DNA of 64,000 nt from Eledone cirrhosa (taxonomy: Eukaryota): NCBI GenBank assembly GCA_964016885.1, contig OZ024740.1, positions 170,624,001 through 170,688,000 of the forward strand, written 5' to 3'. Positions 30,847 through 57,226 of this stretch are shown here, piece by piece. The position numbers were made by a program, and so were the translations under genes. Every line of letters begins with the position of its first letter. Position 1 is the first letter of the stretch. The notes beneath the pieces were generated by a model. It had not been told where the DNA came from, ran no database searches, and saw nothing but the letters and a program-made list of their open reading frames with translations.

Positions 30847-31500
30847 ATAATAATAAATGTGAAGACTAAAATCCAAAGAGGGCTCGATACGGATAAATAT
30901 ATATGAAATATATAAGAACCCTAGAGCAAATATTTATTAAAATAACAGATTAAAGTTTAAGCAAAGAATCGCTACTTTCACCCTTAACGGGATCTTCTGA
31001 AACTAAAATATATATATATATATATATATACTTATACAGGAAAAATTCGGGACCAGCCGTTTCAACCGCTAGATCGGAACGTTCGGATCTAGCCGTTGAA
31101 ACGGCTGGAGCTCAGCTGTCTAATCTACTACACCAAGTACCAAATTCTCTTGTGAGTAATGGTCAAACTGATTTTTACCCCGTCCATTCTCATCTATACT
31201 TATACATATATATATATGTATAGATAGTTCGATGGCTAGAGAGAAAAAAAGAGGTGTTTGCAAAGCAAGTTTGGCCAAATTTGGAAATCACTCTCAAATA
31301 TTTTAAATGAATTATAACTCTGCATTAATTATTTTTTATTCAGTCTATGTTTTAATTAATTATCTATGTAAGCGCAGACACACACACATTCAAACAGAGA
31401 CACATACACGTACACACACATACACACACACACATACGCAAACAAACACACATGTATAAGTGTATGTGTGTTTGTGAGAGTGTGTGTGTATGTGTGCGCG

Positions 31501-33623: not shown

Positions 33624-33886
33624 CTTCTGCCCAAGCTTGAACCTAATAAGTCTTTTAGATTTTGCATCTCTATGTCTTGTTTGTTCTTGAAATATATATA
33701 TATACCTTTTCTACGGAAATACTTAACAGACATATATATATATATATATTATATAATGTAATATATATATATATATTTGAAGACTAAAATCCAAAGAGTA
33801 TCAGAAGATCCCGTTAAGGGTGAAAGCAGCGATTCTTTGCTTAAACTTTAATCTGTTATATATATATATAGACACATATACATATT

Positions 33887-47329: not shown

Positions 47330-50300
47330 CTATAGTCTGATGTAGAGTGAAGGCCCATTCACACGGGCCATTCTCGCCACTTTCACCCATCTTTCATAAA
47401 AACGGCTGGGGTGCAGCACCTCTCTCTCCATCCTGATCCTTCTTCCGAAATGATATCGGAAGAAACGGACCAGTTGTTGGCCAGAGAGAAAGGTGTCTGA
47501 CCTCAGTCCTTTCAGACTTGTCCACCATACAACCTCTTTCACCATGGCTATTACGCACAGAAACACCGCATCTTCTTCGTTTTTGAAGAGGGGAGGCGGC
47601 TTGATCGTTACAATAGACTCGGTGGTCAACCGGATCGGTCCCACCCTTGACAGCAGTTGTTCGACATAGCCCCACAGATCAGCAATGCCCGAGCAGTGTA
47701 CCAATGCGTGTGCAACGGTTTCCTCGTCGCACACGCATCTGGGACAGATCTTTTTCGAGGGGTCCCTACCCGGGCGCCCGTGTCTGTAGAGCCTTTCTCG
47801 AACGGATAGAGCCCTTCTGTAGCATTGCCAGGCCAGGGACCTCTGGAAGTTATCCATGGGTCCCGGGTTGAATGTCCAACCGAACAGGTTGGCCAGTTCG
47901 TCATCCTCCATGCCTAGGGCTTCTCCGAGGGCGCCGTCGCACCTGCTAACCACCAGCCCTCTATAGAATGACGAGGTGGATTCTCCACTGACAGCCGGGT
48001 CCGCCTGCCAGAGAGCCGTGAGCGCCTGGGCACACTCGGTGTGCCAGGCGCCCAGTTTTCTCGGTCTTTGCTTGACCCAGGATTGCAGCTCGGTGAGTGA
48101 GACGAGTCGGGGAAAGGCTCGCCTCACAAACGGGGCCCACACCGGTTGACCGGAGAGGAATACCTGAAGGTGCCGTAGCCTTAATGCGTGTTTACGTATC
48201 ATTAGCCACGGCATCCCCAGCCCTCCTTTCGAAGGGTGTTGACAGCAGATGGATCTCCTCACCATAGGAGCCCACTTCTTCCAAAGGAATTGGAAGAGTG
48301 CGCGCTCCATTTTGGTGAGCGTTTCCCTTGGGCAAGGCACAGCGGTCAGGCGGTAGTAGATGACGGACGCTATATAAGTGTTCGCCACCTCCGCCCGACC
48401 TTTCAGGGACAGTTTGCACTCGGCCCACTTCTGGGTCAGTGCAAACACCCTGTTCGTTACCTCACCCCAGTTCTTCTCCACCTGGAGGTCTGGTCCGAAC
48501 CAGACCCCGAGCAACTTCACCGGGCCCTCCGTCCAGCGCCCGACGACGCCATCGGAGGGCATCGATCTGCCCCTCCACGTGCCGAGTTGCAGACTGATCG
48601 ACTTGTCCCGGTTCAGCTTATCCCCTGTAAACCTTTCGTACTCCTCCAGTAAGGTGCCGATCGCCCCGATTTCCGAGGCCGTCGACACCATTACTGTTAC
48701 GTCATCGGCGTAGGCTGAAACCGCTTTCCGCAATCCCGGTTCCAACGGGATGCCCTGCAACAACTCCAACTTCCGCAGCAGTGGCTCTAGAGTCATTACA
48801 TACAGAAGGGAGGAGAGAGGGCACTCCTGTCGGATGGACCGCGCGATTTCGAACGGCTCCGAGAGGTAGCCGTTCACCTTGACCCTAGAGCAGATGCGGC
48901 TGCTGTGCATGGCATTGATCCAGCCCTTGAAAACGGGTCCGAAGCCTGTCGCTGCTAGCACCGCATCCAGGTAACCATGGTCGACCCTATCGAATGCCTT
49001 AGATTGATCCAAGTTGATCAGAGCCCCACCAAAACCGGGTTCGTTCCCAACCCTCTCTATGATGTATCGCATGAGGTGGATGTTGTCGTGGATGGACCTG
49101 GACGGGATAGCACATGTCTGCGCATCTCCCACCAGGTTACCCACGACAAGCGCCAACCTCTTTGCTAGCACCTTGGCCAAAATCTGTAACTCTGTATTTA
49201 GCAGAGTTATGGGCCTGAAATTATTTATATCGTCCCCCTTGTTCTCGTCCTTCCTCACTAGCGTGACTACGCCCTTGGTCACAGCACAGTGAATTCTCCC
49301 GTTCTGTTGCTAGTTGCAGTAGACCGCCTCGAGGAGATCGGGGAACAAGTCCGGCATAGCTAGATATAGTTCGTATGGAAGACCATCGAGACCCGGGGAT
49401 TTGCGTTTGCCGCATTGGCTCAGCACGTCCTCTATCTCAGCGGCTGAAATCGGCTCCTCACAGGACTTCGCCTCCCTGTCCGAGAGACGCGGCAGGCCGT
49501 CGAGGTATGGACCGAAGTCCACATCCCCAACCGGCTCCCCGCCCCTTCCGAACAATCCGGCAAAGTGCTTTTGAAAAGCCTCGCACATCTGCTTAGGTTC
49601 AAGGATCACCCGTCCATCCTGGTCTCGCAAAGACCGGATAGTAGATCTGCTCCCTCTTTTGGCTTCTGTTACGCGGGCGCAGCTAACAGCTTTGGTCCCC
49701 TCGTTTCCCAGAGCACGTATTTTGCTTCGGACGATGCAGCTTTCGTGTTTCGCGTCGAAGAACTGGCCCAGGGCCGTTCTCGACGCTAGCACTCTGGCCA
49801 CGTCGCCGCTTCTAATTGTCTCTTCTACATTATCTACCAACACCCTTTCCTTCCTATTTCTATTTGAGGCTAACTCCTTACTAAATTCTATAGAGACTAC
49901 TCTAATCTCTCTTTTGAGAGATGCCCACCACCTGCTGTTGACGATGGCGCCCGTCAACCGCTCCTTAACTAAAGTGCTAATCCGGTCCCTATAAGCCTTA
50001 CTTGCCGGTAAGGACAAGTTGAGCTTCCAGTAACCGGGTCCCTGTCTATGAGTTCTGTCAAGGTTGACCATGCAGGTCACTAATTTGTGGTCTGAATAGC
50101 CAACCATGCGCATTTTTGGACAACTTAAAAAGTCCTTATCCTTAATTCTAACTAAGAACCTATCTAGGTACGACCTAGATGATCCGCTACTATTTGCCCA
50201 AGTCCAGGTTGGCGCAGTCGGAAAATCTAGTCGATATCTATCGGCCAGGTCAAATCGACCGATTAACCCTTTGAGGCTATTACACCCCCTCTCTATCGGG

Positions 50301-50765
50301 ACAGGTCCCTACGTAGTCCCAGCGTGCATCTAGGATACCATTCCAGTCCCCCACTAATAGCAAGGAGCGGGACGTCCCTAGAAAAGTCTCCAGACGATGG
50401 AAGTCCTGCCGCATTGACCCGAAAGGGCCGTAGGCGGCTACCAACCTAAACGCTCCGCCTTTACCACTGCCAAGGTCCAGAACCACTAGTCGACCTTCCG
50501 GGTCCAAATGTACCATCTGTGTTGCGAGACCCAGATGTTTTTGCAGCAGAACGACAACTCCACCCCCACCTCCTGGCTGACAGAGAGATGCGTGCATCTC
50601 AAAGTCATCAAAGGTGGGGGCCAGTTGTCGCACGTTGCTGATCCGGGCCTCGCAAATAACCATCACATCTATACGTTGTGACCTGAGGTCATTTAGAAGC
50701 ATTGCTTGCTTCCAAGTTGAGCCCAGACCACGCGCATTTAAACAGCCTACTCTTAGCATAGCCAT
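47330..50765 (-). pseudogene. Tx1 ORF2 (AP endonuclease, reverse transcriptase, CCHC), with a frameshift near 50290 and a nonsense codon at 49310-49312
   Basis: APE: LNARGL, GDWN, YLDRFL, YSDH, GPGYWKLN. RT: KSPGLDGLPYE, FRPITLLN, LDQSKAFDRV, YADD. C-terminal CPRC..ETVAHALVHC. ORFs 49310-50113 and 47330-49282 are in frame across a single TAG. Confidence 0.92.
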
Positions 50766-50789
50766 GTTGGTGGTGAAGAGAAAAGGCAC

Positions 50790-52586
50790 TTACCTCTCTG
50801 CGTCCCGGGTATCGGGCTGCACAATTTCCATTAGGGTGGGGGATGGGTTGTTGGGTGGGGTGGTGGTTTGTGGAAGTGTAGGGGCATCAGTGTGTTGTGT
50901 GGTTGGGGAGTTTGGAGTTGTGTGGGTGTTTGGGGAGGGGGTGGGGTAGTTTTTTAGGAGGACGCGGTTAATGGGCCCGACGCAGGGGGGACCCACGTCC
51001 TCTTTAAAGTTGTTTTTTAAAGTTTTATAGGTGTCCTGTGGGGCCTTAATCATTTTGAGGTGGGGGAAATCCCCTGCCTGGGTGAAGTTAGGCCCTTGGG
51101 TTTTTATTAGATTGTTGTTGTACACAATGTTTAACAGTTTTTTGTTTCTTGTGTTTATGTATGTGTATGCATGTTTTTGTTTTTGTGTGGTGTTTTTTGT
51201 TTGCTGTTGTTGTGAGCTCTTTTGTGTTGGTGTCAGTGTTATGTTTTGGGGAGGGGTTGTTTTCATTTGTGTGTCTGAGGTGTGTTTTCTTTTTTTTTCT
51301 TTTGATTGTGTGGAAGTGCTCCTCTTCGTCTGACGACGAACTAGGGTCATCTTCCGCGTTGGAGGGGAGGGGTATATTTTCGGGTTGTGTTTGCGGTGCG
51401 GGTGTTTTGGAAATTGTTTTTGTTTTTTGAGTGGGGGGATGGGTTGGACATTGTTTTGTTTTGGTTTGAGCTGTGGTGGTTGTTTTTGTAGTGGTAGTTG
51501 TGGTGATTGTGTTGGTTGTGCAGTTGTTGGTGGTGTAGGCAGGATTGGGGTTTTCTTATTAAGTTGGGGACAGACAGCCCTCAGGTGACCTCTGGTTCCG
51601 CAGAGGTAACACACGGGCCGCCTACCCTCAACGGTAATGTTGATGAAAGTTTGATCATCCAGTATGACGCGTTCAGGGATCTGGGCGATCCTTTCGGGCC
51701 TCATTTGAACTACAAGTTCGAGGCTCGTTCCACTGAACGCGTCACCCGATGCCTTTCCCATGGACACCAGCGTGTCATCATCCAGGTCCAGGAAACCTGT
51801 CAAAACCCACCATATGTCCATAATCGGCAGGATGGTGTGGATTTTTATTTTTTGTGTTCTTCTACCCATGTACGTAGGGTAGAAGGTGTATGCGGTGGAT
51901 GTGATTGGTTTGATGGACAGTTTCACTGCTGTGTCCCTGTCCTTCATGAGAATGGATAGACTCCCGTAGAGTCTATCCTTCTGAATGAAGGTGATGTCCT
52001 TCATGACGTCTTTTAAAACCAGCTCTATCTCACTCTGTGATGGTTGAGCTGGTTTTTTGCTTTTATTCGAGATTGTCCTAAACATGACAGTGTTTAGGAG
52101 TCTCTGGCTTTTTAGTTCCGGGGGTGGTGGGTGGATCATGAATGAACCATTTTCCCCGTACACTATATATTTTTTGGCATCTGCCAGTAGCTCCTTCGCT
52201 TTGGTTATATCTACTGGCAGATAGTCGAGGGTTTTCCTTGCCGTCTCGGCGAAGGAGAAATTTTTTTTGTTTGTGTTGCTGTTGTAGTTGGTGGTGTTGT
52301 TGTTATCATTGTTGTTGTTATCACAGTTATTGGTCTTGTTGTTGTTGTTATTGTTATTGGTGTTGTTTTCGTCCGTCGTATTGTTGTTGTTGTTGCTGTT
52401 GCTGGTGCCGCTGGTTCTTTGGGTTGTTGCCATGGCAACGTCAAGTTGTCGGTCAACAGGTGGAGAAAATCCTTCCTCTGGCTGACCTTTCTTTTTGAGC
52501 TCTGCTACTGTGACAGTGGCAGGGGGAAGCTGTAAGTTTATCTTCCCCTTTCCTCCTTCGAATTTTGGTGAAGAAGCTTCAGCCAT
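50790..52586 (-). CDS. Tx1 ORF1p, gag-like nucleic-acid-binding protein with a CCHC zinc knuckle
   Basis: Open 598-aa ORF directly upstream of ORF2. VEGRRPVCYLCGTRGHLRAVCP knuckle; Asn-rich N-terminus and P/Q/T/K-rich C-terminal half. Confidence 0.85.
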   Translation of the reverse strand: MAEASSPKFEGGKGKINLQLPPATVTVAELKKKGQPEEGFSPPVDRQLDVAMATTQRTSGTSNSNNNNNTTDENNTNNNNNNNKTNNCDNNNNDNNNTTNYNSNTNKKNFSFAETARKTLDYLPVDITKAKELLADAKKYIVYGENGSFMIHPPPPELKSQRLLNTVMFRTISNKSKKPAQPSQSEIELVLKDVMKDITFIQKDRLYGSLSILMKDRDTAVKLSIKPITSTAYTFYPTYMGRRTQKIKIHTILPIMDIWWVLTGFLDLDDDTLVSMGKASGDAFSGTSLELVVQMRPERIAQIPERVILDDQTFINITVEGRRPVCYLCGTRGHLRAVCPQLNKKTPILPTPPTTAQPTQSPQLPLQKQPPQLKPKQNNVQPIPPLKKQKQFPKHPHRKHNPKIYPSPPTRKMTLVRRQTKRSTSTQSKEKKRKHTSDTQMKTTPPQNITLTPTQKSSQQQQTKNTTQKQKHAYTYINTRNKKLLNIVYNNNLIKTQGPNFTQAGDFPHLKMIKAPQDTYKTLKNNFKEDVGPPCVGPINRVLLKNYPTPSPNTHTTPNSPTTQHTDAPTLPQTTTPPNNPSPTLMEIVQPDTRDAER

Positions 52587-52798
52587 TTTAAAAAATGTTA
52601 ACTTTTCAACAAAAAAAAACTTTTTTTGTTTAACTATTTCGCCTAAAGGCGTAGAATATTTTGAGAGACTGACCAGATCAAAGTTTGACCTGGCAGTCCC
52701 TCTACAAAATGGTACAAAAATTAAAGTTTACAGACAAGAATTTCTATAGAAATTTAAACAGAACTTACTCAGCAAGTTATACGCGTGTGTCCATCCCA

Positions 52799-53701: not shown

Positions 53702-53740
53702 TGAACCTGAAGATTGCGAAAGCATGAAAGTACTTGTTCA
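53702..53740 (+). ncRNA. Minimal 39-nt type I hammerhead ribozyme
   Basis: tgaac CTGAAGA t-tgc-gaaa-gca-t GAAA gtac TT gttca: 5-bp stem I, GNRA-capped stem II, palindromic stem III. Confidence 0.8.
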
Positions 53741-53911: not shown

Positions 53912-54496
<585 letters not shown>

Positions 54497-55703: not shown

Positions 55704-55740
<37 letters not shown>

Positions 55741-55750
55741 TAAAATAACA

Positions 55751-55820
55751 GATTAAAGTTTAAGCAAAGAATCGCTGCTTTCACCCTTAACGGGATCTTC
55801 TGAAACTAACAAAGTCAATC
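55751..55820 (-). ncRNA. Type I hammerhead ribozyme variant (CAGAAGA core) at the PLE 3' end
   Basis: gattga..agttt CAGAAGA t-ccc-gttaa-ggg-t GAAA gca-gcgattctt-tgc TT aaact-ttaatc. All three stems pair. Confidence 0.7.
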
Positions 55821-56731
55821 TGTAAACGCAGAACTGGATATTTCAAAAAACGTTGCAACCGGAGGAAGACAGGAAGACGATACTTTGGTTCATGGTGACG
55901 TTCGCTGGCAAAGAACGGGAAAAAACGAATAATACGTCATTAATAGGAGCGGTGAAAACAATTACGTGCAAGGACAGAACCACGTTTATGGTATAAAAGA
56001 GGTCGTAGACTAATGTTCTCTAAGTGGTGCATAGAGACGTTCTCTGGCAATGAACGAAAAAACGAAGATAATAAGTCATATGTGGAGCGTGGAGAACAAT
56101 AGCGTGCAAAGACAAAACCACGTAAATGGTATAGCAGAAGTCGTAGACTAAAATTCTAACTAGGAGACCGAATGAATCTCCGCTACAGAGTTAAGAACAA
56201 AACAAATAAATACAATACAGAAGTAATAGGAGCAAATAAATACATACACGCAAACAGATACGTACATACACAAGCATACGCATAACCTTACCATAGGTAT
56301 ACAAAACCACGCACATATAAATATGTGTATGTGTGTATGCTTGTGTACAAATAAATAAATAATTATATAAACGTATATAAGTAAATAAATACGTATATAA
56401 CAAGCGCACACACATACCTACAAATAAATACATGAAGGTTCGGAGACGTAAGTCAACTAAAACAAGAAGTACACATATACACACACCCACCATACGTACG
56501 AACCTGCATACTCACGCAGACGCAAAACTCCCATATACACATAACCAAGCCCTAAATACCAGAATATGTAAAAATGATACGCCAAAACAGTCAAATATAC
56601 GTACGAGAAGGTATACATACCTTCACAAAACATACGGGTAATATATACTTACCTATGCAAAAAGTAAAGGAATAAACAAAACATATACTTAGCTCCCACA
56701 TCAAGACGTAAATATCCACGTATAGATCGTG

Positions 56732-57226
56732 CTATCCGTTAGGGTATAACGTAGGGCTGTAATACAGGAAAGTTTTGTGCAATTTATGTTTACAAGCCGA
56801 AATTGCCTCAGATTTTTTGTTTAAGATGTGGTCGGTGGCGTAGAGTATTTCCAGGGCCTCAGCGGCGCAGAGGTCACATGGTCTTTTATTTCCGTTATAC
56901 GATCTAGCCCTAGCTAGGATCTCCCAGTGTAACTTATATTGGGTGTGGTTGTCTTTTAGACTCCAGATATAAGCTGAAAGTGACGTCATATTCCTTCTTA
57001 GAGGGTAACGAAAAGAATGGGTATGCATGTAAAGACGCTGCTTGAAACTATTGGCGGTTAACCCTATGTAGGCCCTACGGGACGTGGGTGTTACAACCTT
57101 ACATTTGTAGACAATGTTACTAGAGACGCATTTCCCGGATAGGGGACAATCAGCCCGATTCCTACAATTACAGTTAGTACTAACTACAGGGTTGCACGTG
57201 TTCCTACGACTATTAACTATATTATT
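56732..57226 (-). pseudogene. PLE GIY-YIG endonuclease domain fragment (Naiad-like Cys pattern)
   Basis: The frame is open upstream of the listed Met: CNCRNRADCPLSGKCVSSNIVYKCKV..AYIGLTANSFKQRLYMHTHSF..TSLSAYIWSLK..CDLCAAEALEI..LNKKSEAISACKH. Confidence 0.88.

What the first reader, a model, noticed from the sequence alone, without database searches (positions are those of the whole stretch)
55751..55820. Hammerhead variant with U4 replaced (CAGAAGA) fixed in a PLE family
Seen: all four copies (30948-31004, 33797-33852, 54111-54180, 55751-55820) have CAGAAGA instead of CUGANGA, and a U.U pair at the base of stem II. In the two most complete copies stems I (agttt/aaact plus gattga/ttaatc), II (ccc/ggg) and III (gca/tgc) pair and the site is CUU. 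Established: U4 is part of the conserved core uridine turn. Inference: this is a natural, possibly attenuated core variant inherited from the master element, not copy decay.
Basis: partly seen in the sequence, partly recalled or inferred. Interest (0 to 1): 0.75.

Follow-up and report, generated by a model that had tools for sequence, protein, structure and literature searches.

The report
Retrotransposon hammerhead with inherited A4 core
About 20,000 copies of a young jumping gene in this animal genome carry a hammerhead-type RNA motif with A at a core position that is normally U; the rest of the motif stayed unchanged while its loops drifted, so it likely still folds and cuts itself only slowly, which would let the element's RNA be copied uncut.

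Summary
Observation confirmed. The motif (minus strand) is a type I hammerhead fold in the terminal repeats of a young Hydra-like Penelope-like element. A4 is in 19,964 of 20,173 exact genome matches and in older subfamilies, so it is inherited, not decay. Between subfamilies, changes hit 10 of 20 loop positions, 19 of 100 flank positions and 1 of 56 core/stem positions. There is no covariation. The U.U pair is ordinary for this clade. No CAGA core was found in 77 related loci; 44 had CUGA. Many copies start 5 nt before C3 with an extra G, likely a capped transcription start, so templates were uncut. A canonical-U4 sister family also lacks cut-site starts, so this says nothing about activity. 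A4 is predicted to extend an inactive helix. Cleavage is untested. The scan noted this family before on two other pieces of this genome, and position-4 changes in other genomes. Verdict: new variant of a known kind, likely slow but still constrained.

The parts
55748..55823 (-). Type I hammerhead fold in the 3' pLTR, including the 9-bp distal stem I
55796..55802 (-). Core C3 A4 G5 A6 N7 G8 A9; A4 is at 55801
   Evidence: A in 19,964 of 20,173 matches
55783..55795 (-). Stem II: U10.1.U11.1, CCC/GGG, loop GUUAA (last A kept in 256 of 267 copies)
55763..55782 (-). G12 A13 A14, then a 5-bp stem III with a 7-nt loop (monomer-type, unlike the 1-2 nt loops of most relatives)
55761..55762 (-). Predicted cleavage site, CUU|A (untested)
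   Evidence: position by the hammerhead consensus; no copy of 101 starts exactly here
55807..55807 (-). Likely transcription start: first base of proximal stem I, in TTAGTT (older subfamilies TCAGTT; likeness to an initiator is recalled)
   Evidence: 1,985 copies start here after a non-T base; extra G in 17 of 26; 11 of 101 unbiased 5' ends
55779..55805 (-). Predicted inactive helix UUUCA/UGAAA, closed by A4-U11.1
55709..55741 (-). 3' end AAUAAAU running into a (TA)n target
55735..57211 (-). 5'-truncated Penelope-like copy, 95.6-98.8% identical to ORF-bearing copies
56735..57211 (-). C-terminal GIY-YIG-type endonuclease region, residues 551-709 of the 709-aa ORF
54100..54291 (-). Short copy with an identical hammerhead at 54111-54180
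54289..54427 (.). Fold-back junction centred on 54316; the right arm carries the ~90-nt tail
30860..31004 (-). Short copy starting at or just before the likely start site, with tail
33797..33860 (+). Short copy starting at the likely start site, joined to an inverted tail

Best explanation
The motif is the terminal-repeat hammerhead of a young Hydra-like Penelope-like retrotransposon whose source elements carry A at core position 4, and it likely still folds as a hammerhead that cuts itself only slowly. Shown: A4 is fixed in young and older subfamilies; core and stems are unchanged between subfamilies while loops, N7 and flanks change; many insertions were copied from RNA that began at the first base of stem I and spanned the site uncut. 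Inferred: that start is a capped transcription start inside the repeat. A4 would lose the U4 contact of the core and is predicted to add a pair (A4-U11.1) to a hairpin that forms before stems III and I are complete. Most capped RNA would therefore survive to be translated and reverse transcribed, while residual or protein-assisted cutting would keep the core under selection.
For: A4 in 98.96% of 20,173 matches; the other 209 split about evenly, 38 T, 36 G, 26 C in the 100 rows listed (by eye). 93 of 100 listed older-type copies have A4. Lineage-level changes: 1 of 56 core/stem positions (a CpG site), 10 of 20 loop positions (p=1.8e-6), 19 of 100 flank positions (p=0.002); core alone 0 of 10 against loops p=0.011. 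N7 varies while G5, A6, G8 and A9 do not. U1.7 (260 of 267) and the last A of loop 2 (256 of 267) are kept, matching the tertiary pair described in PMC11875169 (passages). Extra G before +1 in 17 of 26 against 26% expected, p=2e-5, and not at neighbouring starts. The inactive helix has pairing probability 0.37-0.87 in the nascent A4 RNA against 0-0.15 in a natural U4 copy. Literature: a natural U4C variant is slow in vitro yet supports viroid infection (PMC3088659); an anole PLE inserts uncut RNA and its hammerhead cuts only with protein (PMC11167929).
Against: No cleavage data. In a pairwise mutagenesis, all changes in the CUGA turn except the C3/G8 swap gave low activity (PMC9901934). No covariation. 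Core against flanks alone is not significant (0 of 10 against 19 of 100, p=0.21). The core lies just downstream of the likely start site, so promoter DNA could explain part of the conservation. The old set is small (22 alignments for most positions; 5' positions pooled with the pattern-selected set). The folding model ignores tertiary contacts and gives low stem I pairing for the U4 copy too. No copy of 101 starts at the cut site.
Confidence: 0.5

Rival explanations
1. The motif no longer cuts. It is kept as a folded RNA signal for the element's protein (near the reverse-transcription start sites), as internal promoter DNA, or both.
For: CUGA-turn mutants have low activity. Templates are uncut. 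Cleavage is dispensable for insertion in vitro in the anole element, and Naiad elements reach high copy number without a canonical hammerhead. The start site overlaps stem I. Core against flank constraint is not significant.
Against: The conservation follows hammerhead rules: N7 and three loops are free, all 10 core bases, H17 and both strands of each stem are fixed, out to 60 nt past the start site. The canonical-U4 control family also lacks cut-site starts, 1 of 29.
Confidence: 0.32
2. A4 is compensated, by the stable stem III, the U1.7-loop 2 contact or the element's protein, and the ribozyme cuts at near-normal rates for its kind.
For: A4 comes with a 5-bp stem III and G15.2-C16.2, unlike relatives. 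Perreault et al. suggest tertiary contacts offset variant cores. The constraint on the core persists.
Against: Published mutagenesis, the predicted off-state helix and the abundance of uncut capped templates.
Confidence: 0.13
3. A4 was an accident in a source element and the motif has been a neutral relic since; the apparent constraint is chance or alignment bias.
For: No covariation; no Rfam match; small old sample.
Against: 1 of 56 against 19 of 100 flank changes (p=0.002) in subfamilies that all carry A4.
Confidence: 0.05

Closest known systems
Hydra-clade Penelope-like elements and their hammerheads (Craig et al. 2021, PMC8557442; section 11 and Files S1/S2 read)
   Same: Single ORF with C-terminal endonuclease, DKT, CxCX5C linker, no CCHH, CxxC and CxH motifs, (TA)n targets, hammerhead near the 3' end, U.U at the base of stem II, H17 often U.
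   Different: All 26 File S2 rows read CUGANGA (their descriptor demands it); here CAGANGA. Stem III has a 7-nt loop instead of 1-3 nt. RWR instead of RWK. The unit is 3.26 kb. The listed Hydra-1_Obim hammerhead has another sequence.
Minimal hammerheads of metazoan PLEs (Cervera and De la Pena 2014, PMC4209133; results and discussion read)
   Same: Type I motif in both pLTRs; most copies are short dispersed ends; low activity expected.
   Different: Their core variant is U3-A8; no position-4 change appears in the text read. This motif has a full stem III and should not need a dimer.
Natural hammerhead core variants (Perreault et al. 2011, PMC3088659; section 8 and passages read, figures not seen)
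   Same: Natural single core changes with reduced activity, including U4C in a viroid and U10.1-U11.1.
   Different: U4A is not named in the text. Those are rare isolates; this one is fixed in about 20,000 copies across subfamilies.
Anole Poseidon element PAc (Frangieh et al. 2024, PMC11167929; passages read)
   Same: Two 3' ends defining a tail; uncut RNA is the insertion template; no RNA ends at the cut site.
   Different: Canonical core with cutting shown in the presence of protein; a different PLE clade.

Membership tests
Hammerhead ribozyme, type I | Three stems around the core in type I order | tested here: met
   the fold can form but is not the predicted minimum
Hammerhead ribozyme, type I | C3, G5, A6, G8, A9, G12, A13, A14, A15.1-U16.1, H17 not G | tested here: met
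Hammerhead ribozyme, type I | U at position 4 | tested here: not met
   A in 98.96%
Hammerhead ribozyme, type I | Covariation in stems | tested here: not met
   6 of 4,215 cells; stems are invariant between subfamilies
Hammerhead ribozyme, type I | Match to an Rfam hammerhead model | tested here: not met
   E<=10
Hammerhead ribozyme, type I | Stem I-loop 2 tertiary contact | tested here: inconclusive
   U1.7 and last loop A kept; the contact itself is not shown
Hammerhead ribozyme, type I | Site-specific self-cleavage | not testable with these tools
   needs an assay; the genomic 5'-end test had no power
EN+ Penelope-like element | One ORF with RT and C-terminal GIY-YIG-type endonuclease | tested here: met
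   709-aa ORF with YRDD and IVY..YIG motifs read; Pfam gave no hit
EN+ Penelope-like element | pLTRs, tail, inverted 5'-truncated partners | tested here: met
   motif on both sides of the ORF in 5 of 10 loci; inverted partners
Hydra clade | DKT, CxCX5C, no CCHH, CxxC/CxH, (TA)n target | tested here: met
   protein read
Hydra clade | RWK motif | tested here: inconclusive
   RWR here
Hydra clade | Canonical hammerhead | tested here: not met
   A4
Hydra clade | Placement in the RT tree with named Hydra families | not tested

The most novel reading that the evidence does not exclude
A4 turned the hammerhead into a co-transcriptional switch. The capped RNA starts on stem I, folds first into an off-state hairpin closed by A4-U11.1, and is refolded and cut only when the element's own protein binds, giving the element feedback control over its RNA.
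Probability: 0.18. Interest if true: 0.72.

Novelty: new variant of a known kind. Interest (0 to 1): 0.5.

Why it matters
What hammerheads do for Penelope-like elements is an open question (PMC8557442). This family is a natural experiment. It is very abundant, has a core change expected to cripple cutting, keeps the rest of the motif fixed, and shares the genome with canonical-U4 families as controls. One cleavage assay separates 'slow cutting is selected' from 'the fold has a non-catalytic job'. It also shows that searches demanding CUGANGA miss whole families.

Tried and rejected
1) A DNA search of the genome returned nothing, not even the window (common words are skipped), so patterns were used. 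2) An apparent U4 sister family with the same stem II was rejected: all 17 such loci among the 30 fetched are fold-back junctions centred on position 4 (16 by rule, 1 by eye). 3) Absence of copies starting at the cut site was rejected as proof of inactivity: 0 of 101 here, about 8 of 100 rows within 1 nt against about 11 if uniform (by eye), but also only 1 of 29 in a canonical family. 4) Sequencing runs: no RNA holder listed. Six of the eight runs laid were labelled as other organisms; they gave few, low-depth, mostly near-identical contigs, likely carry-over, and were not counted as other species. In the deepest run no variant at 55801 was among the rows shown (18 rows hidden). 5) A4 in other families of this genome: 23 hits, by eye deletion products of this family or sporadic copies (limited to GC-rich stem II and GAAAC). 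6) Rfam and Pfam gave no relevant match. 7) Literature searches for a natural U4A found none, and a search on cap-derived G found nothing. Lunse et al. 2017 was not held, nor one review of hammerhead mutagenesis. PMC11014351 and PMC3376415 passages gave nothing on position 4. 8) The Naiad clade was rejected because the endonuclease is C-terminal.

Full report
Observation. The four copies are as described. In RNA sense (minus strand for 55751-55820) the motif is stem I, CAGAAGA, U, stem II, U, GAAA, stem III, UU, stem I. A4 is at 55801 and the predicted cut lies between 55762 and 55761. Rfam has no hammerhead match. My descriptor, free at position 4, finds three of the four window copies and nothing in shuffled loci.

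The element. 55735-57211 is a 5'-truncated copy, 95.6-98.8% identical to ORF-bearing copies. A protein search gave 150 scored matches at 98-100% identity among 65,256 candidates. Ten fetched loci hold open frames of 698-726 codons. The motif lies about 190 nt before and about 930 nt after the ORF, on both sides in 5 of 10 loci. The protein shows DKT, CxCX5C, no CCHH, CxxC and CxH, and copies end in (TA)n. These are the features given for the Hydra clade (PMC8557442 section 11). No tree was built, so I call it Hydra-like. The genome is 3.0 Gb; my guess that the host is a cephalopod is recalled and untested.

A4 is inherited. With position 4 free there are 20,173 exact matches and 0 for the control. 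Only 209 are not A, split 38 T, 36 G, 26 C in the 100 rows listed, as scattered mutation would give. Loci chosen by the endonuclease protein or an intact ORF give A in 57 of 57. Older subfamilies, about 75-87% identical and with other loops, have A in 93 of 100 listed rows and in 13 of 15 copies anchored outside the motif. An apparent U4 sister set is made of fold-back junctions centred on the near-palindrome at position 4, 17 of 17 examined.

How unusual. Of 77 related metagenome loci (several are likely the same family), 44 have a sense CUGANGA motif, one has a second motif with C4, one has U3-A8, and none has CAGANGA; one weak U3-A4-A8 hit lies inside an ORF, and most of the rest gave no hit. 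Three other families in this genome have U4. The U.U pair is common: 14 of 26 published Hydra rows and about 18 of the 44 loci (by eye). Only A4 and the long-looped stem III set this motif apart. My searches found no natural U4A in print, but the most relevant paper and figures were out of reach. U4C is a known natural variant.

Constraint. I compared older copies with the young majority and called a change when one other base reached 30%. Changes occur at 10 of 20 unpaired positions (bulge, N7, loop 2, loop 3), 19 of 100 flank positions and 1 of 56 core or stem positions, that one a CpG site (p=1.8e-6 and 0.002). Changes resume at the first base after stem I. Limits: the sample is small, positions before +1 were pooled with pattern-selected loci, and the core alone is not significant against flanks (p=0.21). 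There is no covariation: 6 of 4,215 cells in 267 copies from mixed samples.

The RNA that gets copied. In 101 copies anchored 3' of the motif, 11 start at the first base of stem I (55807), 30 start within 5 nt of it (positions 55807-55803), and none starts exactly at the cut site. Genome-wide, 1,985 copies start at 55807 after a non-T base. That base is G in about 64 of 100 rows by eye, and in 17 of 26 fetched loci once 4 templated fold-backs are dropped (p=2e-5). Reading the extra G as a copied cap is recalled knowledge; my search for a citation found nothing. So templates were likely capped, began 5 nt before C3 and were uncut. The control limits the conclusion: a canonical-U4 family shows 1 of 29 starts at its own cut site. 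This agrees with the anole element, where uncut RNA is inserted and cleavage is dispensable in vitro.

Mechanism. Position 4 contacts the backbone near A6-N7, and CUGA-turn mutants are weak, so A4 likely slows catalysis. A4 also pairs with U11.1 and extends a helix that buries C3 and G12-A15.1. Its predicted pairing is 0.37-0.87 in RNA transcribed to +32, against 0-0.15 in a natural U4 copy, and 0.09-0.21 against 0.02 or less once stem I is complete (secondary structure only). A fast ribozyme here would cut the cap off the element's own messenger, so a slow one is tolerable or useful (inference). Against full loss of function stand the fixed core, free N7, and kept U1.7 and last loop-2 A. I give slow cutting 0.5, a non-cutting structural or promoter role 0.32, near-normal cutting 0.13 and relic 0.05.

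Earlier notes and verdict. Two unreviewed notes of this scan describe the same family on other pieces of this genome, and three report position-4 changes in PLEs of other genomes. I read them after my own tests. They suggest position 4 is a recurrent tolerated change, which lowers uniqueness; I did not test the other genomes. Verdict: a real, family-wide core variant of a known motif, function untested, interest 0.5.

Noticed in passing
L081-L109; genome-wide: Head-to-head fold-back junctions centred exactly on core position 4 look like a hotspot (17 of 30 fetched loci of a 1,845-match set). They create a U4-reading strand without stem I and could fool hammerhead scans.
   Followed up: partly
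window 53702-53740 (+): A canonical-U4 minimal hammerhead with U.U and palindromic stem III, from another family, 370 nt from the 54111 copy.
   Followed up: no
L083/L089/L321-L350; L090/L091; L094/L110: Three further hammerhead-bearing repeat families with U4. The first shows subfamily-level compensation in stem II and U/C at position 17 (by eye).
   Followed up: partly
L175, L188-L190, L195, L216, L224: 7 of 101 copies start at one point 47 nt upstream of the likely start site, within TA/GT repeats: possibly a short non-autonomous subfamily or a second start.
   Followed up: no
window 47330-52727 (-): A non-LTR retrotransposon with a zinc-knuckle ORF1 and an endonuclease-RT ORF2 broken by stops (L1/Tx1-like by recall).
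   Followed up: no
window 7848-42192, 10 copies: A dispersed SINE-like repeat of about 100 nt (family D20).
   Followed up: no
L362 and L398: Metagenome Hydra-like loci with a C4 motif and a U3-A8 motif.
   Followed up: no
window 55890-56160: An internal direct repeat of about 135 nt in the element's 3' untranslated region.
   Followed up: no
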